Shown: positions 3,242 through 60,630 of the stretch, piece by piece | Position numbering within the stretch: position 1 is the stretch's first letter | Layout: each line of letters begins with the position of its first letter | From: a bacterium | GTDB lineage: Bacteria > Patescibacteriota > Minisyncoccia > Phycocordibacterales > UBA2100 | Assembly (NCBI GenBank): GCA_030647655.1 | Contig: JAUSJH010000002.1 | Span: forward strand, 43,711 to 107,710 | Length of the DNA stretch: 64,000 nucleotides | Reading direction: 5' to 3' | Notes under the pieces: generated by a model | Told to the model about the DNA's origin: nothing | Databases searched by the model: none | What the model saw: the letters and a program-made list of their open reading frames with translations, nothing else | Made by a program: the position numbers and the translations under genes

Positions 3242-4536
3242 GAAAACTTTCGATGTTCCAGATCATGCTTCTCGTCATCTTCGGCGGTCTTGCCGTATCT
3301 GGTGTCTTGATATTCGCACTTGCCATAGGCGGCGGCGACACGAACACGATCGGTGCCGTCAAGATTTGGGGCACGCTTGACCAAGGGGCGTTTTCCATCG
3401 TCATCCGACAGGCGACAGAACGCGATGGACAATTGAGCCAAGTCACCTACGAGCAAAAAGACCCGGCGACCTACGAGAGCGAGCTCACCAATGCGCTTGC
3501 AAGCGGCACGGGGCCAGACCTCTTCCTGATGCGGCAGGATTACGCACTTAAAGACGCCGGCAAGGTTGCCCTCATTCCGTTCTCGGCGCTTTCGCAGGCG
3601 CAATTCGAGAACGCTTTCATCGAAGCGGCAAGTCCATTCCTTACGCAAAAAGGTGTTACTGCAGTCCCCCTCTTAGCCGATCCTCTCATTTTGTATTGGA
3701 ACAAAGATATGTTGGCTGCAGGTGGATTCGCACAGCCACCGAAATATTGGGACGAGCTTTTCAACATGGCGCAGAAGATAACGACGAAAGACGACACAGG
3801 CTCTATCCGCAAATCCACGGTTGCATTCGGTGAATATCAGAACGTAACGAATGCCAAAGATATCGTCGCGACCATGATACTCCAATCCGGTAGCACCATC
3901 ACAGCGTACGACAACGGAGGGCACCTCACTCCCGCGCTCGCGCCGCGCGCTGGGGGCGCCACACAAGCAAGCGTGTCGGCCCTGCGTTTCTACACGGAAT
4001 TCGCGGACCCTTCCAAGAACAGTTACTCATGGAACCGCTCGCTTCCGGAAGCGCAAAAAGCATTCGCTTCGGGCGATGTAGCGCTCTACATCGGGTATGC
4101 AAGCGAGGCACCACTTATCGCGCGCACGAATCCAAACCTTAATTTTACCGCCTCGCCTATGCCGCAAATACGCACCGGCGGTAAGACACTCACCGCCGCG
4201 CGTGTCTATGCACTCGGAGCTTCCCGCGCAGGCAAGAATCCGACCGCTGCCATTACCGCGGCGTTCCTTCTGGCATCGTCCGAGAATGCGAAAGCGCTCT
4301 CGAGTGCGCTCGGGATACCGAGTGCACGCCGCGACGTCGTGGGGCAATCTGCGCAAGGCACTGACGACCTCTTCAACAAACAAGCCATTCTTGCCAACTC
4401 ATGGCTTGATCCTGATCCTGAAAAGACAGCTACGCTCTTTCGCGCTATGATCGAAGGTACGACAAGCGGAACCTTGCAGGTAAGCGAAGCAATCCAGCGC
4501 GCGGACCAGCAATTGGCACAAATTCTTGGCCTATGA
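3238..4536 (+). CDS. extracellular solute-binding protein (SBP family 1-like), membrane-anchored
   Basis: N-terminal transmembrane/signal anchor (MFQIMLLVIFGGLAVSGVLIF). About 430 aa periplasmic-type binding-protein composition. Start overlaps the upstream stop (ATGA). No adjacent permease genes. Confidence 0.55.
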   Translation: MRKLSMFQIMLLVIFGGLAVSGVLIFALAIGGGDTNTIGAVKIWGTLDQGAFSIVIRQATERDGQLSQVTYEQKDPATYESELTNALASGTGPDLFLMRQDYALKDAGKVALIPFSALSQAQFENAFIEAASPFLTQKGVTAVPLLADPLILYWNKDMLAAGGFAQPPKYWDELFNMAQKITTKDDTGSIRKSTVAFGEYQNVTNAKDIVATMILQSGSTITAYDNGGHLTPALAPRAGGATQASVSALRFYTEFADPSKNSYSWNRSLPEAQKAFASGDVALYIGYASEAPLIARTNPNLNFTASPMPQIRTGGKTLTAARVYALGASRAGKNPTAAITAAFLLASSENAKALSSALGIPSARRDVVGQSAQGTDDLFNKQAILANSWLDPDPEKTATLFRAMIEGTTSGTLQVSEAIQRADQQLAQILGL

Positions 4537-4991
4537 GCAAAACCGACAAACCGACCCCATCTGCGTCGTTGCAGGGCCCCAGCAGCTTTCTCGCCGTACA
4601 TGTACGTACGACTCGTTCGCTGCTCTCCCCGCGCCTCGCATCTCGGGCCGTCTTGTCACTTTTGTCTGTTATTGCATTTTATATACTCACCACCGCTGTT
4701 GCCCACGCACAAAGCACCGGTCTGGAAAATCCACTCAACAGTAATTTCAGCACCATCCCCGCCTTTATCGCGGGAGCTTTGAAGGTCCTCGTCATCGTGG
4801 CGCTACCTGTCATAGCGCTCTTCATCGTCTATTCCGGATTTTTGTTTATCTTTGCCCGCGGCGATCCTACAAAACTCACGAAAGCAAAAGAAAATTTCGT
4901 CTACGTTATTATTGGGGCGCTCCTCATTCTCGGGGCATGGGTCATCGCGACTCTCATCGGAGGGACCGTAACTCAATTAGTTGGGAATTAA
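4533..4991 (+). CDS. TrbC/VirB2-like pilin family small membrane protein (paralog A)
   Basis: Signal/TM segment AVLSLLSVIAFYILTTAVAHA-QS, then two hydrophobic helices separated by a short K/E loop (ARGDPTKLTKAKENF). This architecture is typical of the TrbC/VirB2 pilin-like proteins abundant in CPR genomes. The N-terminal extension may be over-called. Confidence 0.5.
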   Translation: MSKTDKPTPSASLQGPSSFLAVHVRTTRSLLSPRLASRAVLSLLSVIAFYILTTAVAHAQSTGLENPLNSNFSTIPAFIAGALKVLVIVALPVIALFIVYSGFLFIFARGDPTKLTKAKENFVYVIIGALLILGAWVIATLIGGTVTQLVGN

Positions 4992-4992
4992 T

Positions 4993-5379
4993 ATGCGACA
5001 TGCTCGGACCATATTACCTATACTATTGCTCGCGGCGCCAGCGGTCGCCAGCGCCGCCGCACCACGCACATTTCAGGAGCTTGCGAGCCTCATCGTCCTC
5101 ATACTCGACAATGCTACGGCAGTCCTCATTGTCGCCGGTATCGTTATCTACTTCTGGGGCATCTCGACCAACATCCTAAAACTCAGCGACGAAGGCGGAG
5201 CAAAACTCAAACTATATCTTTTCTGGGGGATCATCGTGCTTTTTGTGATGGTATCCATTTGGGGAATTCTGCGGCTTCTACAAAGTACGATTTTTGGTAG
5301 TAGTGCATATAGTCAATCGTCGGAATTGACCGAGAGCAGGTCACCGGATCTTTTCCAGCCTCCGGTCTTTAGCGAATAA
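4993..5379 (+). CDS. TrbC/VirB2-like pilin family small membrane protein (paralog B)
   Basis: ATG lies 1 nt after paralog A's stop. Signal peptide ILPILLLAAPAVASA, two TM helices, and the motif FVMVSIWGILRLLQST shared with paralog D. Confidence 0.55.
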   Translation: MRHARTILPILLLAAPAVASAAAPRTFQELASLIVLILDNATAVLIVAGIVIYFWGISTNILKLSDEGGAKLKLYLFWGIIVLFVMVSIWGILRLLQSTIFGSSAYSQSSELTESRSPDLFQPPVFSE

Positions 5380-5386
5380 CATTACT

Positions 5387-5830
5387 ATGCAAAGCCCACG
5401 ACTTCTTCCGCGCGCGCTCATGCTGGAAACGGCGGGACTTGCGTTTCTCACGACAGTGGCTCCGATGATGGCCTCGGCACAGGCGCTCACAAAAGCTGTC
5501 GGAACCTTCAACGTCTTTGTCGGGCTAATGCTCACTGCCTCCATCTTGGTATTTGGCACCGGATTCGTAGTCTGGTCCGTGCGTCTCGGGACGTGGCCGA
5601 CCTACCGCACGGAAGGCGTAAGGATAATGGAGTGGGGGGTCGTGATACTGTTTGTGCTTGTAGTAATCCTCGCTATCGTGCAGTTCTTCCAGAGTCATGC
5701 GCGGGCGGCCGCATATATCGTATCAACCATTGTTCTCATACTCGTCGCGGCCGCTATACTGGTGATGGCGGCCAAGGGCGAGAAAAAGAAGGAAGAGAGA
5801 AGGCCCCCGAGTCAGCAGGGGTTCCCATAG
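5387..5830 (+). CDS. hypothetical polytopic membrane protein
   Basis: Signal-like N-terminus (LAFLTTVAPMMASAQA), four predicted hydrophobic helices, and a lysine/glutamate-rich C-terminal tail. Confidence 0.45.
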   Translation: MQSPRLLPRALMLETAGLAFLTTVAPMMASAQALTKAVGTFNVFVGLMLTASILVFGTGFVVWSVRLGTWPTYRTEGVRIMEWGVVILFVLVVILAIVQFFQSHARAAAYIVSTIVLILVAAAILVMAAKGEKKKEERRPPSQQGFP

Positions 5831-6072
5831 GCCCGTCCGTCTGCGAGCTTGGCACACACGTACTCGTGCGTGCACCACCACTCTCATATCGGCTTCGCCA
5901 ACATTCGAGCCCTTCGGGCGCCTCGCGGCGGGGTCGGTTATCCACATCAAGTTTATGTTGTCTATTGTGTTTTCTGCTCCTATCTATACCATTGAAGTAC
6001 TCCCGCCTGCGCCGAAGGCTTCGGCGGGCAGGTAGAAATAGCGTCCACATTTATATATAGAATAAACAGAAT

Positions 6073-6435
6073 ATGCGGAAAATCATTGTTTCGTCCGGTT
6101 TTGGCGCAGCTCTCATCGCGCTCCCCGCACTTGCTTCTGCGGCGACACTGCTCGATACACTCGCTCTTTTCAATACCTTCCTGAATGCCCTCATTGGGCT
6201 TTTCATCACACTTGCCATCGTGGTCTTCTTCTGGGGCCTCATTGAGTACCTCGTGAACGCGGGGGAAGAAAAGTCCAAAGGCCTGCAAACTATGTTCTAC
6301 GGCGTTATTTGCATCTTCGTCATGGTTTCCATCTGGGGTATCATCCGGCTTCTGCAGACTACCTTCAAAGTCACTTCGACCGATCCTGTAATCCCGAAAG
6401 GTATACAGATAAATACCGGAGGCACCTATTACTAA
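6073..6435 (+). CDS. TrbC/VirB2-like pilin family small membrane protein (paralog D)
   Basis: Signal peptide ALIALPALASAAT, two TM helices with loop GEEKSKG, and the motif FVMVSIWGIIRLLQTT nearly identical to paralog B. Confidence 0.55.
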   Translation: MRKIIVSSGFGAALIALPALASAATLLDTLALFNTFLNALIGLFITLAIVVFFWGLIEYLVNAGEEKSKGLQTMFYGVICIFVMVSIWGIIRLLQTTFKVTSTDPVIPKGIQINTGGTYY

Positions 6436-6484
6436 TGGGTCTCATGGCCGCGTCTTAAAAGGCTGAACGAAACGGCCGCGCTCT

Positions 6485-6793
6485 ATGGATGCTCTCGGAA
6501 ACGTAATGGATAAGTTCTGGGCCTATATCATCTCTCCGGCCATTCTTGTCATTTTCGCCTGCGGGTTCTTTCTGTTCGTTTTTGGACTCGTTGAGTTTCT
6601 CTGGAAGTTGAACGAAGGGGGAGATAATAAAGATGGGAAACAACACATGGTGTGGGGCATCGTCGGAATGCTCATCATGGTATCAGTGTGGGGTATTCTC
6701 GACCTACTCGACAACACCTTCGGCCTCGACTATAAGAATCCCGATGTCGGCCGCGCGCAGAACGTGCAAATCCCCGTCAATTTCGGGAATTGA
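6485..6793 (+). CDS. TrbC/VirB2-like pilin family small membrane protein (paralog E)
   Basis: Two TM helices with loop NEGGDNKDGK and the motif LIMVSVWGILDLL related to paralogs B and D. No obvious cleavable signal. An alternative start is possible at the internal Met, 6506. Confidence 0.5.
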   Translation: MDALGNVMDKFWAYIISPAILVIFACGFFLFVFGLVEFLWKLNEGGDNKDGKQHMVWGIVGMLIMVSVWGILDLLDNTFGLDYKNPDVGRAQNVQIPVNFGN

Positions 6794-16646: not shown

Positions 16647-16692
16647 AACAGCGTACAGTATGCCGTATTTTCCTGCATGCTACAATATTTGC

Positions 16693-17133
16693 ATGACCCG
16701 CAGGCAGGTGGTTCGATTGGCCGTACTCTTCCTCCTAGTCTTTATAGTGGCGCCCTCGCTTGTGCTTGCGCAGGGCAATATTTTGCCCGGCCAAATCGTG
16801 CCCCAACAGTGCAACGACCCCGGTGGCTGTAAATCAATATGCGACTTGGCACAGGTCGCGCAGAATGTTCTCAATACCGGCATCTACATCGCTGTTTTTC
16901 TCTCCGCAGTCCTTTTCGCGTGGGCAGGATTCTTATATCTCACGAATTCCGCGAATTCAAGCGGCATATCGAAGGCCAAGGAAGTATTCCTCAACGTGGG
17001 GATTGGACTCGTCATCATCCTTGCCGGCTGGCTTCTCGTAGACACGCTCATCAAGGTCCTTGCGGGAGGGAAGTTCGGCACATGGAATAAAGTGTGCGAG
17101 CTTCTTCTGCATCACGTATCGGCTTTCGTATAA
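16693..17133 (+). CDS. TrbC/VirB2-like pilin family small membrane protein (paralog F, Cys-containing)
   Basis: Signal peptide RLAVLFLLVFIVAPSLVLAQG, a Cys-rich loop (QQCNDPGGCKSICD), then two TM helices with loop NSANSSGISKAKE. Start moved to the internal Met to avoid tRNA-Tyr. Confidence 0.5.
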   Translation: MTRRQVVRLAVLFLLVFIVAPSLVLAQGNILPGQIVPQQCNDPGGCKSICDLAQVAQNVLNTGIYIAVFLSAVLFAWAGFLYLTNSANSSGISKAKEVFLNVGIGLVIILAGWLLVDTLIKVLAGGKFGTWNKVCELLLHHVSAFV

Positions 17134-49458: not shown

Positions 49459-50739
49459 ATGGAGATAATAAAAGAATTCGGCTCAAAGACATTTTCTTCG
49501 CTCAAGATACGAAATTACAGGCTCTATTTTCTGGGGCAGGGGCTCTCCCAGTGCGGCAATTGGATGCATATCGTCGCTTTGGGCTGGCTCGTCCTCGAAT
49601 TGACCGGCTCGGGAGCGGCGCTCGGTAGCGTTCTTGCGTTCCGTTTTGCGCCGATGCTTCTCGGAGGTCTGTTCGCAGGCATCATTGTAGATAGATTCGA
49701 CAAGCGGCGCATTCTGTATGTAACACAATCCCTTTTTTCACTTCTCGCGCTCTGCTTAAGTATTTTGGTCTACACGGACACAATCCAGATTTGGATGCTT
49801 TTTGCGAACGCACTCATCATCGGTCTCATCGATGTCGTCGATAATCCGACGCGCCAGACCTTCGTCCACGGAATGGTGGGGAGGGACAATGTGCGCAACG
49901 CGGTCACATTGAGCTCGACGCAGGCGAATCTCGCCCGCGCACTGGGACCTTTGATCGCCGGCTCGCTTATCGCAAGCGTCGGCATCGCCTTCTGCTTTTT
50001 TGTTAACGCTGTTTCTTTTGGCGCGGTACTCATCGTCCTCTCTCTCATGCGGGAGAGCGAATTTCACAGGGAACACAGTGAGCACAAAGCGCTCGGGCAT
50101 ATCTTGGAGGTCCTCTCGTATGTCGCGTCGATGCCTATCATCCGTACCGTCCTTCTCGTCATGGCGGCAATCGGGGCCTTTTCCTATGAATTTCAAGTCA
50201 GCTTGCCCTTGCTTGCACAGCAGACTTTCTCCGGCGCCGCCGCTGATTATGCGGCACTTCTCTCGGCGATGGGCGCGGGCTCGGTCGCGGGCGGCCTTTT
50301 TGCCGCAAGCCGGCACAGGATCGCCCCGCATGAATTCGTCATCTCGGCTTTGCTTTTTGGACTTTCCATTGTGCTCACTTCCATCATGCCGACCCTTTCG
50401 CTTGCGATAGTCGGAATGATGTTTGTGGGATTCTTTTCCATCAATCTCACATCGCTCGGAAATACGATGATACAGCTCGATGCGGCCGCGCATATGCGCG
50501 GCCGCGTTATGTCGCTGTGGGCCATGAGCATCTTCGGATCGACGCTTATCGGCGGACCAATAATCGGTCTCATCGGGCAATATGCGGGCGCGCGATGGGG
50601 GCTCGCCTTGGGCGGTGTCGTAGCCATTTTTGCCGGCCTCTATGCGGCGCGGACACTTCTTAAAAAAGACGAGACACAGCCGCTACCCGATGTCGAATTT
50701 GAGAGTGAGGACAGCACAGCAGAAAATCTGAAACTTTAA
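49459..50739 (+). CDS. MFS transporter
   Basis: 12 TM helices and the MFS motif GIIVDRFDKRR between TM2 and TM3. Confidence 0.85.
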   Translation: MEIIKEFGSKTFSSLKIRNYRLYFLGQGLSQCGNWMHIVALGWLVLELTGSGAALGSVLAFRFAPMLLGGLFAGIIVDRFDKRRILYVTQSLFSLLALCLSILVYTDTIQIWMLFANALIIGLIDVVDNPTRQTFVHGMVGRDNVRNAVTLSSTQANLARALGPLIAGSLIASVGIAFCFFVNAVSFGAVLIVLSLMRESEFHREHSEHKALGHILEVLSYVASMPIIRTVLLVMAAIGAFSYEFQVSLPLLAQQTFSGAAADYAALLSAMGAGSVAGGLFAASRHRIAPHEFVISALLFGLSIVLTSIMPTLSLAIVGMMFVGFFSINLTSLGNTMIQLDAAAHMRGRVMSLWAMSIFGSTLIGGPIIGLIGQYAGARWGLALGGVVAIFAGLYAARTLLKKDETQPLPDVEFESEDSTAENLKL

Positions 50740-51198
50740 TATTTCTGTCAGGCGGAGGCGGATTACGAAACAAACCTTGCGGCGAAGAGGGAAATCGAAG
50801 AATTACAAATCAGGCCTGCACGCATCGAGGACGAGAAACTTGAAAAGATTTTGAAGATTTTGGAAAGTAAATAAATCACTCTGGCCGGCGACCTTCCAGC
50901 TCCTCTTGTTCCTCTCTGGTAGCTTTTTCTAATTCCGTTTCATTTTCGACTTGCGCGGCGCTTTTCTTTGGGATAGTTTCGTACAAATCGGCACGCGTAT
51001 CAGACTCCGTGCCCTTTTTCTCTTCTTGACGCTCTATTTCGGCATCCCTTTCGGCGCCATACAGCCGCCTGCGCACTTCTTCGGGGGATATGCGCTTATC
51101 TTTTTCTGCATCTTCAGGCATGTGTGGATTCTAACATATCCACACATGTAGCGGGTGCTTTACTTGACTAAATCGCTGCACTTTGGTAAAGTGGATGC

Positions 51199-51507
51199 AT
51201 GAACTGGAATTTGCCGCAAAATAAGGCTTTAATAAAGGCGATTTTGTCGCTCGAAAACTCTGACGAAGCGCGGCGCTTTTTACGCGATCTTCTTACCGAA
51301 GGGGAGATAGAGGAGTTCACACGACGTTTCGAGACGGCCGAGCTACTTACCGAAAAGGTTCCGTATTCAATGATAGAGAAACAAACCGGGCTTAGCTCAA
51401 CGACCGTAGCGAGAGTTTCGAAATGGCTCAACGGCAAGGAGGGCGGCTACCGCCAAGTCATCAGCAAACTCCATCACCACTCAACATCTCTGGCGAGAGG
51501 GAGTTGA
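51199..51507 (+). CDS. TrpR-like (YerC/YecD family) DNA-binding protein
   Basis: 102 aa. LLTEGEIEEFTRRFETAELL...SMIEKQTGLSSTTVARVSKWL, a Trp-repressor-fold HTH. Confidence 0.6.
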   Translation: MNWNLPQNKALIKAILSLENSDEARRFLRDLLTEGEIEEFTRRFETAELLTEKVPYSMIEKQTGLSSTTVARVSKWLNGKEGGYRQVISKLHHHSTSLARGS

Positions 51508-51537
51508 GTTGATATTTCATTTCAGATTTTCAAACCA

Positions 51538-51561
51538 ACCCCCTCTCGCGAGGGGGTTTTT
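51538..51561 (+). terminator. rho-independent terminator
   Basis: ACCCCCTC-TCGC-GAGGGGGT followed by TTTT. Confidence 0.75.
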
Positions 51562-51895
51562 GCTACGTGCCTCGGCCTCTGTGGCCGGAAAGAAAATCTG
51601 CTCTTTGAGGTACGAAAATGGCTCAGGAACGACCGAATAGGATCTTGGATGAAGAGGATCTTTCTGAGTGGAGGCCGCTAATTGGGCCCGCTTGGACGGC
51701 ATATGTGCTCGAATCGGTGAAAGCTCGCGTTGAAGTTTGGCTGTTTGGTCCGAATGACGATGTCAACGCCTGTTGCGAGCTCTAGAACTCCGATCAAGAG
51801 AGGCTCAAAGAACTACTTCAAGACGGCATGGGTGTTGCCGGATTGTTCCTCCACCCACCATTGAACGACGAACCACCACTCTGAAAGGAAATGTC

Positions 51896-52783
51896 ATGTC
51901 TTCCATCCTCCTGCCTTCAAGCAAGAGCGTCAACCAACGTACGTTGGACATTCTTAGTTCTGCCGGCATCGCATTGGACCGAATGGGTTCAAAACGCGAT
52001 ACCAACATCCTCCTGACTGGCATCAAGTGGCCGATGACGGCGGCGCTCGTTCATCAGTCACGTATTCCGCAACTAGTCGCAGACGGTGCGTATACGCTCG
52101 GTATCGTCGGCCTCGATTCCGTTAAAGAGAGCGGCGTCGATGTGGAAGTGTGTGCCGACCTTCTGTTCAACCGTTCGACGTGGAACAAGGCAAAAATTGT
52201 CCTCGTTACGAAAGAAGGCGGTCTGACTGATGCGACCAGCGTTCCGAACGGCGCGCAAGTCCTGACGGAATATCCGCGTCTTACGCGTCAGTTCTTCGGG
52301 AAACTCGGCCGCAAGGTGGTTATCGTACCCTCGCGCGGCTCCATTGAGGCGGAGATTCCGAATCCGTATCCGTTTGGCGTCTGCCTTACGGAAACCGGAC
52401 AAAGCCTCCGGGCCAACGGTCTTCGTGTCATCAGGACTCTGATGGAGACCAGCACTGTCCTAATCGCCAACAAGAAGGAGTACAGGGATCCGGAAACGCA
52501 ACGAAGTATCCGGGCCTTTAAAACAATCCTGCTCGGCGTCATCGCCGCACGGGAAAAGGTTATGCTCGCGGCAAACGTGCCTGTAACGAATCTTAACGAA
52601 GTGCTTGCCGCTTTGCCGGCACTTCGGAGCCCGACCGTCACAAAACTTGCCAACGAACGATACGTCTCGGTGAGCGTTGTCGTATCGCGTGACAAGCTCA
52701 ATGATCTGCAAGAGCGGCTTCTGGTTCTTGAAGCGGAAGGACTTGTCGTGATGCCGCTCTTTTCACTCATCCAATCCCGGTAA
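51896..52783 (+). CDS. hisG: ATP phosphoribosyltransferase (long form with C-terminal regulatory domain)
   Basis: Catalytic core with CLTETGQSLRANGL (the PRPP-binding signature) and a C-terminal HisG_C domain. Start at MSSILLPS. Confidence 0.85.
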   Translation: MSSILLPSSKSVNQRTLDILSSAGIALDRMGSKRDTNILLTGIKWPMTAALVHQSRIPQLVADGAYTLGIVGLDSVKESGVDVEVCADLLFNRSTWNKAKIVLVTKEGGLTDATSVPNGAQVLTEYPRLTRQFFGKLGRKVVIVPSRGSIEAEIPNPYPFGVCLTETGQSLRANGLRVIRTLMETSTVLIANKKEYRDPETQRSIRAFKTILLGVIAAREKVMLAANVPVTNLNEVLAALPALRSPTVTKLANERYVSVSVVVSRDKLNDLQERLLVLEAEGLVVMPLFSLIQSR

Positions 52784-52801
52784 ACCTGAAAGGAGACAGG
52801 A

Positions 52802-53122
52802 ATGGAATGGAGTATCCGAACTTTGGAGAACCGACTCGAGGAGCGGGCGAAGGCTCCGGCGAGCGAATCGTACACGCGGCAGTTGATCGACAAGGGGGTT
52901 CGCGAATGTGCCAAGAAGTTCGGCGAAGAAGCCGTCGAGGTCGTCGTTTCCGCGACGAGTGAAGATGGTCCACAAATCATCGCCGAATCGGCCGACATGA
53001 TATATCACCTGCTCGTGTTGCTCATGTCGCACGGCCTTACCTTTGCGATGGTTGAAGAAGAACTTAAACGTCGCGAAGGGCAATCGGGGTTGGCTGAGAA
53101 AGCTGCACGCAAACCGACGTAG
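52802..53122 (+). CDS. hisE: phosphoribosyl-ATP pyrophosphohydrolase
   Basis: MazG-like all-alpha domain (LENRLEERAKAPASESYTRQLIDKG...EEAVEVV...ESADMIYHLLVLL). Confidence 0.85.
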   Translation: MEWSIRTLENRLEERAKAPASESYTRQLIDKGVRECAKKFGEEAVEVVVSATSEDGPQIIAESADMIYHLLVLLMSHGLTFAMVEEELKRREGQSGLAEKAARKPT

Positions 53123-53167
53123 GGCGGCAGTCGCTTTCCGCCAAAAGGGTAACTGTTCTTTTCAACG

Positions 53168-53196
53168 GGCGCGCTTCGGCGCGCCCGCAATCTTTT
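53168..53196 (+). terminator. GC-rich stem-loop terminator after hisE
   Basis: GGGCGCGC-TTCG-GCGCGCCC followed by a T-rich stretch. Confidence 0.6.
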
Positions 53197-53375
53197 AGTT
53201 GCGCGAAATGGGGGATATGATATTGTGTACGTACATGCTTTCAATGACACATAACATCCGACGAACAGCTTCATTTGAGGCTGTTTAGAGTGTTTGTACC
53301 CCCACACGAACTTTCCAAAACGGCCTCAATCAGGGCCGTTTTTCGTTAGATGCAACCGAAAGAACGCATCTGACG

Positions 53376-53765
53376 ATGCGTTCTTTCACAATGGAGGAAA
53401 TGAAGATGTCAAAGTGGAAAGAAAAACCCGCTATGACTGCGAAAGATGCGCTGCTTGAACGTATCGAACAGTGGAAACGTGCTTCAGTCACACACGTGGT
53501 CAACGATCTCTACCTGACCATCGGCAAAAAGGTTAGCGACCGACTACAAACCAGTCTCATGACCAGCAAGTTTTCGGCGGTGTGGATCGATCCCATCTTG
53601 GCGTTCATCGAGTCTTCGGCGAAGCAGCTTTACGAGTCGGGCAGTACGGCCGATGACCTCAACGCCAACCTAATCGCCGAAGTTGCTGCACTTCGCTTTG
53701 AGAGTCTGGAATTCGAAGCGAGGATTCGAACTCTCGAACGCGCACGTAGTCGCACCGAGAAGTAA
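53376..53765 (+). CDS. hypothetical protein
   Basis: A 129-aa ORF that is predicted helical with no TM. Possible internal starts. Confidence 0.35.
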   Translation: MRSFTMEEMKMSKWKEKPAMTAKDALLERIEQWKRASVTHVVNDLYLTIGKKVSDRLQTSLMTSKFSAVWIDPILAFIESSAKQLYESGSTADDLNANLIAEVAALRFESLEFEARIRTLERARSRTEK

Positions 53766-54377: not shown

Positions 54378-55325
54378 ATGAGACACCTTATATCGCTCAA
54401 AGAACAGAGTGCGGATGATATCCGCGATATTATTGCGCTCGCGGCGCGTATCAAGAAAAAATATCGTGCGGGGGAAACGACGGATATTTTGCACGACAAG
54501 ACGCTCCTAATGTTCTTCCAGAAGGGTTCGACTCGGACGCGAATTTCATTTGAAGCGGGAATGACGGAGCTTGGCGGTCACGCCATCTACCTCGATGCCG
54601 CGAAGACGCAATTTGCTCTCGCCGATTTCCGTGACGAGATACGGGCCGCGATGCGTTTCGGGGATATCCTGATGATGCGCCTTATGCGTGTAGAAGACGT
54701 CGCGCTCGCGGCTTCGTTTGATCAGGTTCCTGTTATCGATGGCTGTAGCGAGAAATATCATCCCTGCCAAGCGCTTGGGGATATTTTCACGATGGCGGAG
54801 CACTCTAAGGGGTTGAAAAATGTCAAAAAGGTCGCATGGCTTGGTATTGAGAACAACATGTCAAATACTCTCAAGCTTGCGTGCGCTAAGCTCGGGATAG
54901 AGGTGGCCCTTGTCACTCCTGAGGTGAATGCCGCGAGCGTGGATAAGGAACTAAATACAATGGCAAATGCGACCGGAAAAGTGAAAAAAGTCCTTGATAT
55001 CAAAGAAGCACTTCACGGGGCTGATTATGTGCACACCGATACGTGGATGGATACGGAATACTTTAAATCGGGGAAACCACTCCCCGAATTTGCCGCGGAA
55101 TTCGAGCGTCGCATGAAGGTCTTTATGCCATACCAACTTAATGCCGCGCTCATCGAGAAATACGCTCCAAAGGCCGGCATTATGCATTGCATGCCTATGC
55201 ACGTAGGATACGAAATTACTCGCGACGCCATTGAGCACAAGAACTCGGTCATCTTCGATCAGGCGGAGAATCGCAAGCATGTCCAAAAGGCGATTTTACT
55301 CTGGCTGTTGGAGAAGGGCCTGTAA
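54378..55325 (+). CDS. ornithine/aspartate carbamoyltransferase-family enzyme (OTC-like; substrate uncertain)
   Basis: STRTR carbamoyl-phosphate motif, HPCQALGD, and the C-terminal HCMPMH (compare HCLP). The second-substrate loop reads DTWMD rather than the canonical DVWxSMG. Confidence 0.75.
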   Translation: MRHLISLKEQSADDIRDIIALAARIKKKYRAGETTDILHDKTLLMFFQKGSTRTRISFEAGMTELGGHAIYLDAAKTQFALADFRDEIRAAMRFGDILMMRLMRVEDVALAASFDQVPVIDGCSEKYHPCQALGDIFTMAEHSKGLKNVKKVAWLGIENNMSNTLKLACAKLGIEVALVTPEVNAASVDKELNTMANATGKVKKVLDIKEALHGADYVHTDTWMDTEYFKSGKPLPEFAAEFERRMKVFMPYQLNAALIEKYAPKAGIMHCMPMHVGYEITRDAIEHKNSVIFDQAENRKHVQKAILLWLLEKGL

Positions 55326-55399: not shown

Positions 55400-56869
55400 A
55401 TGCTAACCCTTGGAGAAAAATGTGCGGTCTTCGGAGTCTATGGAAAAGGATTCGACGTCGCGCGGCTCTCTTTCTTCGGACTTTTCGCACTCCAGCATCG
55501 CGGGCAGGAGAGCTCCGGAATTGCAACGGGAAATGGAGAGACGGTGTGTCTTCACAAGGGAATGGGACTTGTCTCACAGGTGTTCAATGAGGATGTCATG
55601 GAGTCGCTCAAGGGTCACATAGCGGTCGGACACAATCGGTATTCGACGACCGGCGGCTCCAAGGTGAAGCATGCCCAGCCGATGCTCGCCGCTGGCGCTC
55701 GCTCGCTCCAGCGAATCGTCTACGACGACGCCAATCCAAGCCTTCATGATTCCGTTTCGCTCTGTTCCACACCTGACGACGGCGCAATCGCGCTTGTGCA
55801 TAACGGTAATCTTCCCTCGACCACAGTGCTTCTCGAATTTCTCAAAGAGAAGGGAGTCGACTCGTCCGAATTCTCGGACTCCCGCATGATCGTTGAGGCC
55901 ATTGCGGCATCCATGCGCGAGGGCGTTGGCCTCGAGGGGGCTATCAAGAATATCTATCCGCTCCTCACCGGTGCATTCTCAATTCTCATCATGTCCAAGG
56001 ATAAGCTCATCGCCATTCGCGACGTATGCGGCATTCGCCCGCTCTCCATCGCAAGCTTGAATGGCGGGTACATCATCGCTTCGGAGACATGTGCCTATCC
56101 GCCGATTGGTGCAGTGTATCTGCGCGATGTGGCTCCGGGGGAGATGGTGGTGATAGACGAAGGAGGTATTCACGCGCAGGAGCTAGCCACTCCGAATCCC
56201 AAGCTCGACATATTCGAGTTCGTCTACTTCGCACGACCCGACAGTGAGCTCCTCGGTAAGTCTGTCTATGAAGTGCGGCGCAATTTCGGCGTTCAGCTTG
56301 CGAAGGAATATCCGCTTGAAGCCGACGTCGTGATACCCGTGCCGGAAACAGCGATTGCTTCGGCCATCGGCTACGCCCAGACTCTCGGCATTCCTTTCGA
56401 AATGGGGCTTACCAAGAATCGCTACATCCATCGCACTTTCATCACACCCGAACAGCACATACGCGAACAAGGGGTCAAAGCGAAACTCACGCCGATACCG
56501 GAAGTCGTTCGGGGGAAGCGTGTTGTCGTGTTCGATGATTCCATCGTACGCGGTACGACCTCTCGCCAGATAGTGAAAATGCTTTTTGAAGCCGGCGCAA
56601 AAGAAGTACACTTCCTCGTCGCTTCGCCGCCCGTGAAATACCCAGATTTTTACGGCATCGACACACCTAGACAGTCAGACCTCATCGCGGCCACGAAATC
56701 CGTGGAAGAGATGCAGGCATATCTCGGTGCTACATCGTTGCGATTTCTCTCATACGAAGGAATGATAAAAGCCACGGGGCTTCCGGAGGGCCGTTTTTGC
56801 ACCTCGTGTTTTACCGGCGTCTATCCGATAGATATCAAAGAACGCGCGAAGGAGGTGAAAAAGGTGTAA
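55400..56869 (+). CDS. purF: amidophosphoribosyltransferase (with short propeptide)
   Basis: Propeptide MLTLGEK, then the Ntn Cys in CAVFGVYG. Glutaminase domain followed by the PRTase motif VVVFDDSIVRGTTS. Confidence 0.9.
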   Translation: MLTLGEKCAVFGVYGKGFDVARLSFFGLFALQHRGQESSGIATGNGETVCLHKGMGLVSQVFNEDVMESLKGHIAVGHNRYSTTGGSKVKHAQPMLAAGARSLQRIVYDDANPSLHDSVSLCSTPDDGAIALVHNGNLPSTTVLLEFLKEKGVDSSEFSDSRMIVEAIAASMREGVGLEGAIKNIYPLLTGAFSILIMSKDKLIAIRDVCGIRPLSIASLNGGYIIASETCAYPPIGAVYLRDVAPGEMVVIDEGGIHAQELATPNPKLDIFEFVYFARPDSELLGKSVYEVRRNFGVQLAKEYPLEADVVIPVPETAIASAIGYAQTLGIPFEMGLTKNRYIHRTFITPEQHIREQGVKAKLTPIPEVVRGKRVVVFDDSIVRGTTSRQIVKMLFEAGAKEVHFLVASPPVKYPDFYGIDTPRQSDLIAATKSVEEMQAYLGATSLRFLSYEGMIKATGLPEGRFCTSCFTGVYPIDIKERAKEVKKV

Positions 56870-59718: not shown

Positions 59719-60630
59719 ATGGAACATCTTGTTGAGACCCAGCAGTTTGATAGGAAGTCACTCAAGAAGCTTTTCGAACTTGCCACATCTATCGAAGGCA
59801 AGCGCGACGAGTCACTCAAAGGAAAAATATTAGTTTCTCTTTTTTTCGCCCCTTCAACTCGTACGCGCCTTTCTTTTGAATCCGCCATGTTTCGTCTCGG
59901 CGGTGACGTGATAACAATGGAAAGCGGAGAGTCATCGTCGCAATCGAAAGGCGAGACTCTTGAGGATTCCATACGGGTTGTCTCTCAGTACGGAGATATC
60001 ATTGTCATGCGTCATGGGGAAGTCGGCACCGCCGCGCGCGCCGCGGCTGTTTCAAAAGTCCCAATCATCAACGCTGGGGATGGCAACATGGGCCAGCACC
60101 CCACGCAAGCATTGCTCGATCTCTACACGATTCAGCGAGAGCTCGGGTGCGAGGATGGCATACACGTTGCGATAGTCGGCAATCTGAAATATTACCGCTC
60201 GCCGCGCTCTCTTGCGTATCTCTTGAGTAAATATAAAGACATGCATGTGACGTTTATTTCATCACCCGAGCTGCGAATGGAGGGGGACGTAAAGGAGCAT
60301 TTGAAAGAGAGCGGAGTCCAATTTATCGAGACCGAAGACATGATTGAGGGTATACGTGACGCCGATGTCGTGTATCAAACGCGAATTGCAAAGGAGTGGA
60401 TAAAGAACGACGAAGAATATGAGCGGCAGCGGGGCCGCTACATCATCACGCGTGCGGTAGCCGATTCTATGAAGAAAGGTGCCATCATTATTCACGCCTT
60501 GCCTCGCGTCGGTGAAATAGAAGCGGAGGTGGATGATTCACCGCATGCTGTGTACTTCAAACAGGTCGGTTACGGCCTCATCGTGCGCATGGCGCTTTTG
60601 AAGACGATGCTCGGAGGAAAGAAAATTTAA
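59719..60630 (+). CDS. pyrB: aspartate carbamoyltransferase catalytic subunit
   Basis: STRTR, HPTQALLD, and the ATCase-type HALPRV motif. 303 aa. Confidence 0.9.
   Translation: MEHLVETQQFDRKSLKKLFELATSIEGKRDESLKGKILVSLFFAPSTRTRLSFESAMFRLGGDVITMESGESSSQSKGETLEDSIRVVSQYGDIIVMRHGEVGTAARAAAVSKVPIINAGDGNMGQHPTQALLDLYTIQRELGCEDGIHVAIVGNLKYYRSPRSLAYLLSKYKDMHVTFISSPELRMEGDVKEHLKESGVQFIETEDMIEGIRDADVVYQTRIAKEWIKNDEEYERQRGRYIITRAVADSMKKGAIIIHALPRVGEIEAEVDDSPHAVYFKQVGYGLIVRMALLKTMLGGKKI

What the first reader, a model, noticed from the sequence alone, without database searches (positions are those of the whole stretch)
51562..53122. Orphan hisG-hisE pair with a 330-nt untranslated leader
Only the first step (HisG) and the pyrophosphohydrolase step (HisE) of histidine biosynthesis are present, with no other his genes nearby. 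A 330-nt leader sits between an upstream terminator and the hisG start. It contains several hairpins and a CCACCCACCA tract, but no obvious His-codon leader peptide or canonical T-box core. In a reduced genome this pair may produce PR-ATP or PR-AMP for a non-canonical purpose, or the pathway is split across the chromosome. The leader may be a novel regulatory RNA.
Basis: partly seen in the sequence, partly recalled or inferred. Interest (0 to 1): 0.5.

Follow-up and report, generated by a model that had tools for sequence, protein, structure and literature searches.

The report
Histidine attenuator hidden in repressor gene
The "leader" before an isolated hisG-hisE pair in this small-genome Patescibacteria bacterium is not a new RNA switch: it is the downstream half of a histidine-sensing attenuator whose three histidine codons lie at the end of the upstream histidine-repressor gene, followed by a small, recently broken protein-coding gene.

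Summary
The genes are real. hisG (long form) is at 51896-52783 and hisE at 52802-53122, and no other his gene was found in the 64 kb. The 334 nt before hisG are not an untranslated riboswitch-like leader.

The upstream ORF (51199-51507) is HisR, the YerC/TrpR-family histidine repressor. Its promoter carries a HisR-type operator. Its last 11 codons read HHH-STSLARGS-stop.

The end of that ORF (51493-51510) can pair with 51533-49, forming an antiterminator of -29.6 kcal/mol. This is a ribosome-mediated His attenuator.

The same layout recurs upstream of hisG in about 20 Patescibacteria loci. Some carry a free 19-30-aa leader peptide and others carry the His codons fused to hisR. Of the 120 best HisR homologues, 118 have the His run at a fixed distance from the stop.

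The rest of the "leader" (51618-51884) is an 88-codon ORF shared with one relative and interrupted here by an in-frame TAG. Overall it is no more structured than shuffled sequence (z -0.05).

Across 358 kb of related loci only hisG, hisE and hisI occur, so the pathway looks truncated. Genome-wide absence could not be tested.

The parts
51156..51175 (.). HisR-type operator (gtgCTTTA-cttgac-TAAAtcg) overlapping the -35 hexamer of the hisR promoter
   Evidence: This is the only match to CTTTA-N6-TAAAG (<=1 mismatch) in the 64 kb. The published consensus is cacTTTA-N6-TAAAgtg (PMC9413887). Perfect sites lie at the same place in L005, L077 and L079, and there are several in L009/L011/L013.
51164..51192 (+). 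Sigma-70-like promoter TTGACT-17-TAAAGT. The -10 ends 6 nt before the hisR ATG, so the mRNA is probably leaderless.
   Evidence: Promoter scan. The same TTGAC..TAAAGT-N6-ATG layout is seen in 8 relatives. No other + strand promoter-like site lies between here and hisE.
51199..51507 (+). hisR: YerC/YecD TrpR-family histidine repressor, 102 aa, ending ...KL-HHH-STSLARGS-stop. Its 3' end doubles as the attenuator's leader ORF.
   Evidence: Pfam Trp_repressor 8e-20. TIGR02531 scores 62.8 bits against a cut-off of 42.2. 118 of the 120 best homologues carry a His run at a fixed distance from the C-terminus.
51472..51480 (+). Regulatory codons CAT CAC CAC. These are the only His residues in HisR. The first His codon is 33 nt before the stop.
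   Evidence: Read from the sequence. The 33-nt spacing is identical in 9 group-A loci, whether the leader is fused or free-standing. The combined signature (3 His codons, a stop within 60 nt, then a terminator) occurs once in the window and in 0 of 100 shuffles.
51493..51510 (+). Segment 1, the 5' arm of the antiterminator. It contains the hisR stop codon TGA at 51505-51507.
   Evidence: The 51488-51552 fold is -29.6 kcal/mol, z -5.2. 92% of cells are paired across 9 sequences, against <=51% in slid controls. Third-codon positions and the bases after the stop are invariant.
51533..51549 (+). Segment 2. It pairs either with segment 1 (antiterminator) or with segment 3 (terminator).
   Evidence: Alignment column 101 changes C>U together with both of its partners (col 41 G>A, col 112 G>A) in L080/L081.
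51537..51561 (+). Intrinsic terminator: a 9-bp stem (51537-45 / 51550-58), loop UCGC, then UUUUU (51557-61).
   Evidence: Terminator scan. Fold -17.2 kcal/mol, z -3.8. 99% of cells are paired across 9 sequences.
51566..51614 (+). Post-terminator three-way structure. CCUC (51570-73) pairs with the Shine-Dalgarno GAGG (51607-10) of the next ORF.
   Evidence: Fold -21.8 kcal/mol, z -3.7. The hairpin is conserved in L077, L005 and L002, and a different hairpin occupies this position in L003, L004 and L079. SD sequestration is not universal. Its function is inferred only.
51618..51884 (+). Small ORF of 88 codons with an in-frame TAG at 51783-85, so the product is 55 aa if the stop is not read through. 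It starts at the conserved TCTTTGAGG-N-ATG, which in most relatives is hisG's own start. It contains the CCACCCACCA tract (coding LHPP).
   Evidence: It is collinear with the 88-aa ORF of L077/L078. tblastn gives 3e-15 across the TAG. blastp gives 1e-21 with 34/87 identical residues. No other homologue was found in the 5.8-billion-protein index. An independent Logan contig (L001) is identical.
51896..52783 (+). hisG: long-form ATP phosphoribosyltransferase with the C-terminal regulatory domain.
   Evidence: Against L077, differences by codon position are 59/42/150, indicating purifying selection.
52802..53122 (+). hisE: phosphoribosyl-ATP diphosphatase. There is no HisI domain.
   Evidence: It is 69% identical to the C-terminal half of the HisIE fusion in L077.
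53166..53197 (+). Operon-end terminator: a 9-bp all-GC stem followed by a T-rich tail.

Best explanation
The locus is one histidine-controlled operon: P(hisR)-hisR-attenuator-small ORF-hisG-hisE. It has two layers of control, both of known kinds.

1. Repression. HisR (YerC/TrpR family, histidine as co-repressor in characterised members) binds the palindrome over the -35 hexamer and represses the whole unit. This is inferred from the motif.

2. Ribosome-mediated attenuation. The leader ORF is the 3' tail of hisR itself.
- When His-tRNA is scarce, the ribosome stalls on CAU-CAC-CAC (51472-80). Its front edge stops at about 51493, so segment 1 (51493-51510) stays free. Segment 1 pairs with segment 2 (51533-49), the terminator cannot form, and RNA polymerase reads into the small ORF, hisG and hisE.
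- When histidine is plentiful, the ribosome runs on to the UGA inside segment 1 and covers it. Segment 2 then pairs with segment 3 (51550-58), and transcription stops at the U-run (51557-61).

What is shown and what is inferred: the anatomy, the mutually exclusive structures, and their conservation and spacing are shown. The stalling mechanism, termination efficiency and HisR binding are inferred by analogy.

In this genome it carries a nonsense codon.

The operon most likely raises HisG and HisE when histidine is scarce. Whether that feeds a complete histidine pathway is unknown.
For: Identity of the genes:
- HisR, HisG and HisE were identified by Pfam and NCBIfam.

Operator and promoter:
- The window has a single operator match, and it lies on the hisR promoter.
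- The motif and its position are conserved in relatives.
- It agrees with the published HisR consensus, and histidine-dependent DNA binding has been shown for a characterised member (PMC9413887).
- No promoter-like site lies between the terminator and hisG.
- In most relatives only ~45 nt separate the terminator from the hisG ATG. hisG must therefore be transcribed through the terminator.

Structures in the window:
- The antiterminator folds at -29.6 kcal/mol (z -5.2) and the terminator at -17.2 kcal/mol (z -3.8). They share segment 2.

Conservation of the design:
- The same three-segment design, with 2-3 His codons just upstream and the stop codon inside segment 1, is found in about 20 distinct Patescibacteria hisG loci.
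- It occurs in four sequence-unrelated versions, all with significant fold energies.
- The leader is a free 19-30-aa peptide in L002, L004, L006, L009, L011, L013, L084, L085, L091, L093, L094 and L096. It is fused to hisR in the window and in L003, L005, L077, L079, L080, L081, L087 and L103.
- The spacing from the first His codon to the stop is fixed: 33 nt in 9/9 group-A loci, and 11 or 13 residues in 108 of 120 HisR homologues.
- Base pairs are maintained at 92-99%, against <=74% in slid controls. There is one three-way compensatory change.
- Between the window and L080/L081 the attenuator core is 80% identical at the nucleotide level, while the flanking hisR and hisG coding DNA is 58-62% identical.
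- The combined signature occurs once in the 64 kb and in 0 of 100 shuffles.

Small ORF:
-.
Against: - Everything here is computational. No transcript or reporter data were available.
- Covariation within each sequence group is modest, because the element is highly conserved. 7-10 pairs per helix never vary, and shuffle controls give 16-36/500.
- There are only three His codons, against seven in E. coli hisL.
- With a 102-codon leader ORF, coupling of the ribosome to the polymerase at the right moment is assumed, not shown.
- With no translation at all, this three-segment design predicts read-through. That is the opposite of the E. coli trp and his leaders.
- Several relatives have mismatches in the antiterminator (L002, L077, L003, L004).
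- L087 has the HHH tail but no obvious U-run.
- The window's operator has weak outer positions, and the second, -10-overlapping site is degenerate here.
- Regulating hisG by histidine makes sense only if its product is linked to histidine. No other pathway genes were seen.
Confidence: 0.8

Rival explanations
1. The 334-nt stretch 51562-51895 is an untranslated, structured regulatory RNA of a new class (a riboswitch or similar) controlling hisG.
For: - There is a long gap before hisG, and no Rfam family matches it.
- The first ~52 nt form a stable structure that sequesters a Shine-Dalgarno sequence.
Against: - The whole region folds no better than shuffles (z -0.05, 44/100 shuffles as good).
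- About 267 of the 334 nt are an ORF conserved at the protein level with L077/L078.
- Most relatives have only ~45 nt here, so the bulk is a lineage-specific insertion and not a conserved RNA.
- blastn finds conservation only in the first ~80-100 nt.
Confidence: 0.03
2. The hairpin is simply hisR's own terminator, and the HHH tail is a protein feature of HisR such as metal or histidine binding. On this view hisG-hisE are transcribed separately and there is no attenuation.
For: - The hairpin plus U-run directly follows a complete gene.
- The His run is conserved in the protein family.
Against: - L002, L004, L006, L009 and others have the same His codons, spacing, segment 1 and terminator in a free 19-30-aa ORF with no HisR domain.
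- Tail residues vary (STSLARGS, SIPIARGS, LILVARED) while the nucleotides of segment 1, including third-codon positions and bases after the stop, are invariant.
- Segment 1 is complementary to the terminator's 5' arm in four sequence-unrelated versions.
- There is neither a promoter-like site nor room for a promoter before hisG in relatives.
Confidence: 0.08
3. A histidine-specific T-box, or a proteobacterial-type His leader (Rfam RF00514), regulates hisG.
For: Both are the usual RNA controls of his genes in other phyla (PMC9413887).
Against: No T-box or His_leader hit appears in 51100-52000 even at E<=10 with permissive filters, and none appears at gathering thresholds in the window.
Confidence: 0.01
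4. hisG-hisE and their controls are decaying remnants of a lost histidine operon, and the regulation is vestigial.
For: - The partners of hisG vary between lineages: none, hisE, hisI or hisIE.
- The small ORF carries a nonsense codon.
- One relative (L107) has only a 164-aa ORF with faint HisG N-terminal similarity after the same cassette.
- No other his genes occur in 358 kb of relatives.
Against: - hisG is intact and passes equivalog cut-offs.
- It shows a strong third-position bias in substitutions (59/42/150).
- It is retained with its attenuator across lineages whose HisG is only 35-50% identical.
Confidence: 0.08

Closest known systems
his operon leader / attenuator of E. coli and Salmonella (hisL; Rfam His_leader RF00514)
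   Same: It shares a translated ORF with tandem His codons, alternative antiterminator and terminator hairpins that share a strand, and a U-run directly before hisG. The predicted logic is the same: a stalled ribosome gives read-through.
   Different: - There is no sequence or covariance-model similarity.
- It has 3 His codons rather than 7, and three pairing segments rather than the six (A-F) of hisL (the hisL figures are from my own knowledge).
- The stop codon lies inside segment 1.
- Here the leader ORF is the tail of a 102-aa regulator gene, on a probably leaderless mRNA.
- It occurs in Patescibacteria and controls an incomplete set of his genes.
Candidate His attenuators of Firmicutes (B. 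cereus group, Peptostreptococcaceae, Erysipelotrichales; Ashniev et al. 2022, PMC9413887)
   Same: These are non-RF00514 attenuators with leader peptides carrying 3-5 consecutive His codons immediately upstream of terminator/antiterminator hairpins.
   Different: Those were found only in genomes lacking HisR and precede complete his operons. Here the attenuator and HisR act on the same transcript and are physically fused.
HisR (YerC) histidine repressor regulon (PMC9413887)
   Same: It is a TrpR-family protein of about 100 aa that passes TIGR02531. It has the 20-bp palindrome cacTTTA-N6-TAAAgtg, sits as the first gene before his genes, and has an autoregulatory site.
   Different: The phyla listed in that study do not include Patescibacteria. 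The C-terminal HHH extension and downstream attenuator are not described there.
Dual control of the E. coli trp operon by TrpR and attenuation (my own knowledge)
   Same: A TrpR-family repressor and a ribosome-mediated attenuator sense the free amino acid and the charged tRNA respectively, for one operon.
   Different: In E. coli trpR is unlinked and the leader peptide TrpL is a separate 14-aa ORF. Here the repressor gene itself carries the regulatory codons.
rph-pyrE attenuator of E. coli (my own knowledge)
   Same: A full-length upstream gene (rph) acts as the 'leader'. Ribosomes finishing its 3' end close behind the polymerase decide termination at an intercistronic attenuator.
   Different: That system senses UTP through polymerase speed, not codon-specific stalling. 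It has no regulatory codon run and no link to the pathway's repressor.
Histidine-specific T-box riboswitches
   Same: They control the same target genes in Firmicutes and Actinobacteria, and also have a terminator/antiterminator output.
   Different: They bind tRNA directly and involve no translation. No T-box features are present here.

Membership tests
Ribosome-mediated amino-acid attenuator (His type) | Translated ORF with tandem codons for the regulating amino acid, just upstream of the structures | tested here: met
   CAT CAC CAC lies at 51472-80, in frame and 33 nt before the stop. This is conserved in about 20 loci and in 118 of 120 HisR homologues.
Ribosome-mediated amino-acid attenuator (His type) | Mutually exclusive antiterminator and terminator sharing one strand | tested here: met
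   Segment 2 (51533-49) pairs with segment 1 or segment 3. The same holds in L110, L112, L009 and L006, which have unrelated sequences.
Ribosome-mediated amino-acid attenuator (His type) | Intrinsic terminator (GC stem plus U-run) between the leader ORF and the regulated genes, with no separate promoter | tested here: met
   In relatives ~45 nt separate the terminator from hisG.
Ribosome-mediated amino-acid attenuator (His type) | Short, free-standing leader peptide | tested here: not met
   In the window the leader is the tail of the 102-aa hisR ORF. It is free-standing in L002, L004, L006, L009 and others.
Ribosome-mediated amino-acid attenuator (His type) | Read-through increases on histidine / His-tRNA limitation | not testable with these tools
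   This needs an expression or reporter experiment.
Rfam His_leader RF00514 | Covariance-model match | tested here: not met
   There is no hit at the gathering score or at E<=10.
T-box riboswitch RF00230 | Covariance-model match (specifier loop, T-box sequence) | tested here: not met
   There is no hit at E<=10 in 51100-52000.
HisR / YerC-YecD TrpR-family repressor | Family model above cut-off | tested here: met
   TIGR02531 scores 62.8 bits against a cut-off of 42.2. Pfam PF01371 gives 8e-20.
HisR / YerC-YecD TrpR-family repressor | Cognate 20-bp palindrome cacTTTA-N6-TAAAgtg in regulated promoters | tested here: met
   51156-51175 is the only such site in the 64 kb. Perfect sites occur in relatives. 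The consensus is from PMC9413887.
HisR / YerC-YecD TrpR-family repressor | Histidine-dependent DNA binding | not testable with these tools
   This has been shown only for the R. gnavus HisR in PMC9413887.
Long-form ATP phosphoribosyltransferase HisG | Catalytic domains plus the C-terminal regulatory domain, above equivalog cut-offs | tested here: met
   TIGR00070 scores 103.7 against 75.75. TIGR03455 scores 78.9 against 40.05. Full-length alignment to 2VD3 gives 7e-32.
Long-form ATP phosphoribosyltransferase HisG | Enzyme activity and histidine feedback inhibition | not testable with these tools
   The variant PRPP-loop motif GVCLTETG is shared with archaeal homologues that sit in full his clusters. 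That suggests it is compatible with activity, but does not prove it.
HisE phosphoribosyl-ATP diphosphatase | Family model above cut-off | tested here: met
   NF001613 scores 125.6 against 120. TIGR03188 scores 92.4 against 42.7.
Complete histidine biosynthesis pathway | hisA, hisB, hisC, hisD, hisF, hisH and hisI present in the genome | tested here: inconclusive
   None is found in the 64-kb window or in 358 kb of 39 related loci. The same queries find them beside hisG in most archaeal loci. The rest of the genome is not available to these tools.
Untranslated 5' leader RNA | No conserved coding potential, but conserved structure | tested here: not met
   An 88-codon ORF is conserved with L077/L078. 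The fold z-score is -0.05.

The most novel reading that the evidence does not exclude
Patescibacteria may keep only the front end of the histidine pathway: HisG, with or without HisE and HisI. It would be under tight histidine-starvation control through a hisR gene whose own tail is the attenuator leader.

Under this reading the products (PR-ATP, PR-AMP or ProFAR) serve something other than de novo histidine synthesis. Candidates are a starvation signal, an exchange with the host, or re-routing of adenine-ring and PRPP carbon.

The fused hisR-attenuator cassette would then be a general histidine-starvation switch. In other lineages it drives unrelated cargo with no Pfam match: 295-aa and 301-aa proteins, a HAD hydrolase, a LOG-like TIGR00725 protein and zinc-ribbon ORFs.
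Probability: 0.3. Interest if true: 0.8.

Novelty: new variant of a known kind. Interest (0 to 1): 0.6.

Why it matters
1. This is comparative evidence that ultra-small Patescibacteria (CPR) use classical transcription-translation-coupled attenuation. I found no literature on this in the searchable library.

2. The regulatory codons sit inside the repressor's own reading frame. Histidine shortage would therefore both stall completion of HisR and open the antiterminator. That is a compact, unusual coupling of the two control layers, and it is conserved in over a hundred homologue clusters.

3. The switch controls an apparently truncated pathway in organisms generally regarded as amino-acid auxotrophs (my own knowledge). 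A vague annotation oddity becomes a testable question: what do these cells make from ATP and PRPP when histidine runs out?

4. In practical terms, automatic annotation would call this a plain hisR gene plus its terminator and miss the regulation.

Tried and rejected
- Rfam scans found only tRNAs and sub-threshold chance hits (miRNA and CRISPR-DR models picking up the hairpin). I used the gathering threshold on the whole window and E<=10 on 51100-52000.
- Folding the 334-nt 'leader' gave no excess stability.
- A database search for the small ORF returned only itself, from L077. NCBIfam and Pfam found nothing for it.
- I asked whether the no-Pfam cargo proteins behind other hisR cassettes are cryptic HisG. 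hhalign vs the HisG profile gave E 0.5 and 0.3 for the 295-aa and 301-aa proteins, so this was rejected. It gave E 0.02 over 28 columns for the 164-aa ORF of L107, which is only suggestive. PDB sequence searches for the two larger proteins found nothing.
- The second palindrome in the window promoter (CACTTTGGTAAAGTG, 51181-51195) has the wrong half-site spacing for a HisR site. I treated it as a degenerate copy of the -10-overlapping operator seen in L005, L087 and L079.
- Column-wise pair counting for the group-B terminator was abandoned because indels in the 3' arm make the alignment unreliable.
- Literature searches for Patescibacteria/CPR combined with hisG, histidine biosynthesis or attenuation found nothing relevant.
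- I did not build a covariance model. Known members would match by construction, and the divergent versions share no sequence.
Full report
**What is there**

The window is from a Patescibacteria (CPR) genome close to Candidatus Kaiserbacteria.
- The HisG protein is 100% identical to a 'MAG: bacterium' entry and 72-74% identical to Kaiserbacteria proteins.
- The gene content is typical of the group: T4SS-type pilins, DprA, RelA/SpoT and few biosynthetic genes.

The two genes are confirmed.
- hisG is at 51896-52783, 295 aa. It hits Pfam HisG and HisG_C and passes the TIGR00070 and TIGR03455 cut-offs. The best solved relative is the long-form enzyme 2VD3, aligned end to end.
- hisE is at 52802-53122, 106 aa. 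It hits PRA-PH and passes NF001613.
- A strong terminator follows at 53166-53187.

No other his gene is present in the window. About 50 ORFs were scanned with Pfam. tblastn with E. coli HisD/C/B/H/A/F, taken from NC_000913.3, found nothing in the 64 kb.

**The upstream gene is the histidine repressor**

ORF 51199-51507 is a YerC/YecD TrpR-family protein (PF01371 8e-20; TIGR02531 above cut-off). This family was identified as HisR, the histidine-responsive repressor of his genes. Its operator consensus is cacTTTA-N6-TAAAgtg, and histidine-stimulated DNA binding was shown in vitro (Ashniev et al. 2022, PMC9413887).

- The window has exactly one match to CTTTA-N6-TAAAG (<=1 mismatch). It lies at 51158-51173, on the -35 hexamer of the only + strand promoter-like site in 50700-53500.
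- Perfect sites occupy the same position in L005, L077 and L079. Multiple perfect sites flank hisR and the leader in L009, L011 and L013.
- In all of these promoters the -10 (TAAAGT) ends 6 nt before the ATG, so the transcripts are probably leaderless.

**The 'upstream terminator' is an attenuator**

HisR ends ...KL-HHH-STSLARGS-stop. The three His codons (51472-80) are the only histidines in the protein.

- The last codons plus the stop and five following bases (51493-51510) are complementary to 51533-51549. This hairpin folds at -29.6 kcal/mol, z -5.2.
- 51537-45 alternatively pairs with 51550-58 and is followed by UUUUU. This hairpin folds at -17.2 kcal/mol, z -3.8.
- The two structures are mutually exclusive.
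- A ribosome stalled on the His codons would reach to about 51493 and leave segment 1 free, favouring the antiterminator.
- A ribosome at the UGA (51505-07) would cover segment 1, favouring the terminator.

The stalling geometry is inference. The structures are computed.

**Comparative evidence**

I retrieved hisG loci from genomes and metagenomes.

- In relatives the terminator is followed within ~45 nt by the hisG start, which is preceded by the conserved motif TCTTTGAGG. hisG must therefore be transcribed through the terminator.
- Upstream there is always a short reading frame with 2-3 His codons.
  - It is a free 19-30-aa leader in some loci. Examples are L002 MEVPINNSAHHHSIPIARGS, L004 MQKISNIIHHHLILVARED, L009 MQNKQEQFSKTHHHGAETGESVCV and L006 ...MFHHDTFFSKAGFCHD.
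  - It is the tail of hisR in the window and in L003, L005, L077, L079, L080, L081, L087 and L103.
- The distance from the first His codon to the stop is exactly 33 nt in all nine group-A loci, whether fused or free.
- Across nine sequences the antiterminator is 92% paired and the terminator 99% paired, against <=51% and <=74% in slid controls. One position changes together with both of its alternative partners.
- A second sequence group gives 92% paired against <=61%.
- Four sequence-unrelated versions (window type, L110/L112 type, L009 type, L006 type) all fold into the same pair of alternatives, with z between -2.3 and -5.0.
- The attenuator core is better conserved at the DNA level than the flanking coding regions. 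Against L080/L081 it is 80% identical, while hisR and hisG are 58-62% identical.
- Within-group covariation is modest because the element is so conserved. The strongest argument is the repeated architecture.
- The signature (three His codons, a nearby stop, then a terminator) occurs once in the window and in none of 100 shuffles.

**The rest of the 'leader'**

The conserved RBS and ATG after the terminator (51618) does not start hisG here. It starts an 88-codon frame ending at 51884. This frame is collinear with an 88-aa ORF at the same place in L077/L078, the closest hisG relative that has one.

- tblastn gives 3e-15 and blastp gives 1e-21, with 34/87 residues identical. The alignment continues past an in-frame TAG at 51783.
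- The CCACCCACCA tract encodes part of its C-terminus.
- An independently assembled Logan contig is identical.
- The ORF has no other homologues.
- The full 334 nt fold no better than shuffles (z -0.05).
- Only 51566-51614 is notably stable (z -3.7). That structure pairs CCUC with the ORF's GAGG.
- Rfam finds no T-box, His_leader or other family.

**The wider pattern**

With E. coli His proteins as queries, 39 Patescibacteria loci (358 kb, including the window) contain only hisG plus a variable partner:
- hisE in the window, L080 and L081;
- hisI in L091, L094, L095, L096 and L099;
- a hisIE fusion in L077;
- nothing in L002-L005 and L079.

Most archaeal loci recovered by the same HisG search carry hisD/C/B/H/A/F next to hisG. 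This is a positive control for sensitivity.

- hisG is under purifying selection. Differences by codon position against L077 are 59/42/150.
- Variable small genes sit between the attenuator and hisG. They are the 88-aa ORF, a LOG-like TIGR00725 protein, a zinc-ribbon ORF and a 160-aa ORF.
- A search with HisR found 1017 homologues. 118 of the best 120 have the His run 11 or 13 residues (mostly) from the C-terminus.
- In three HisR clusters examined, the identical promoter-hisR(HHH)-terminator cassette precedes non-hisG cargo with no Pfam match.

So the fused cassette is widespread, and hisG is only one of its cargoes.

**Conclusion**

- The interpretation of a novel untranslated regulatory RNA does not.
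- The region is a HisR-repressed, His-codon-attenuated operon with an inserted small gene that carries a nonsense codon.
- The attenuator is of a known kind but a new variant. It has no Rfam match, it lies in a phylum where I found no report of attenuation, and its leader codons are embedded in the repressor gene.
- Whether the pathway is truly truncated genome-wide could not be tested here.

Noticed in passing
L107-L114 (hisR at about 5001-5315 in L107, L110 and L112): The same promoter/operator-hisR(HHH tail)-terminator cassette precedes unrelated cargo in other CPR lineages. The cargo is a 295-aa and a 301-aa protein with no Pfam, PDB or HisG similarity, a HAD hydrolase, and in L107 a 164-aa ORF with faint HisG N-terminal similarity. 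HisR homologues (1017) greatly outnumber the HisG relatives found (14), although the two searches differ in sensitivity.
   Followed up: partly
window 54378-55325, 55400-56869, 59719-60630: An OTC-like carbamoyltransferase (below the equivalog cut-offs), purF (passes TIGR01134) and pyrB (passes TIGR00670) lie near hisG. No other purine, pyrimidine or arginine pathway genes were seen in the 64 kb. As with hisG, these are 'first-step' enzymes. purF is syntenic 1-3 kb downstream of hisG in L003, L004, L005 and L079.
   Followed up: partly
L009 9044-9811; L103 3445-3957; L091 3607-3780; L011 1431-1913: In other Patescibacteria, genes are inserted between the His attenuator and hisG. They include a LOG-like TIGR00725-related protein (possible nucleotide phosphoribohydrolase, below cut-off), a 63-aa zinc-ribbon ORF and a 160-aa ORF with no family. 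This could hint at a non-canonical fate for HisG products.
   Followed up: partly
window 51783-51785: There is an in-frame TAG in the 88-codon small ORF. The homology to L077/L078 continues after it. It could be a recent nonsense mutation, a read-through site or a population variant. The independent Logan contig L001 has the same base.
   Followed up: partly
window 51187-51201 and the hisR / leader-peptide promoters in L002, L004, L005, L077, L079, L080, L081, L087: The -10 element (TAAAGT or similar) ends 6-9 nt before the ATG, with no Shine-Dalgarno sequence. This suggests leaderless mRNAs for hisR and for the free-standing leader peptides.
   Followed up: no
L009 10813-10838; L011 3026-3051: An extended perfect palindrome containing a HisR site (GCTCCACTTT-N6-AAAGTGGAGC) lies just after the hisG terminator, between convergent genes. 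No obvious downstream target gene was found.
   Followed up: no
window 51566-51614: The post-terminator structure pairs CCUC with the Shine-Dalgarno GAGG of the next ORF. An analogous anti-SD pairing is visible in L002 but not in L003 or L004. It may be a translational layer, or an RNA stability element.
   Followed up: partly
L079 9900-9945: The terminator region is duplicated or extended (CCCCCTCTCGCGAGGGGGCTGCCTTTTTGCGAGAGAGGTTTTT), giving two alternative 3' arms.
   Followed up: no
window 4533-6793 and 16660-17133: There are several small tandem ORFs with T4SS-pilin/TrbC-like domains, and eight tRNA genes are scattered across 6.8-33.3 kb.
   Followed up: no
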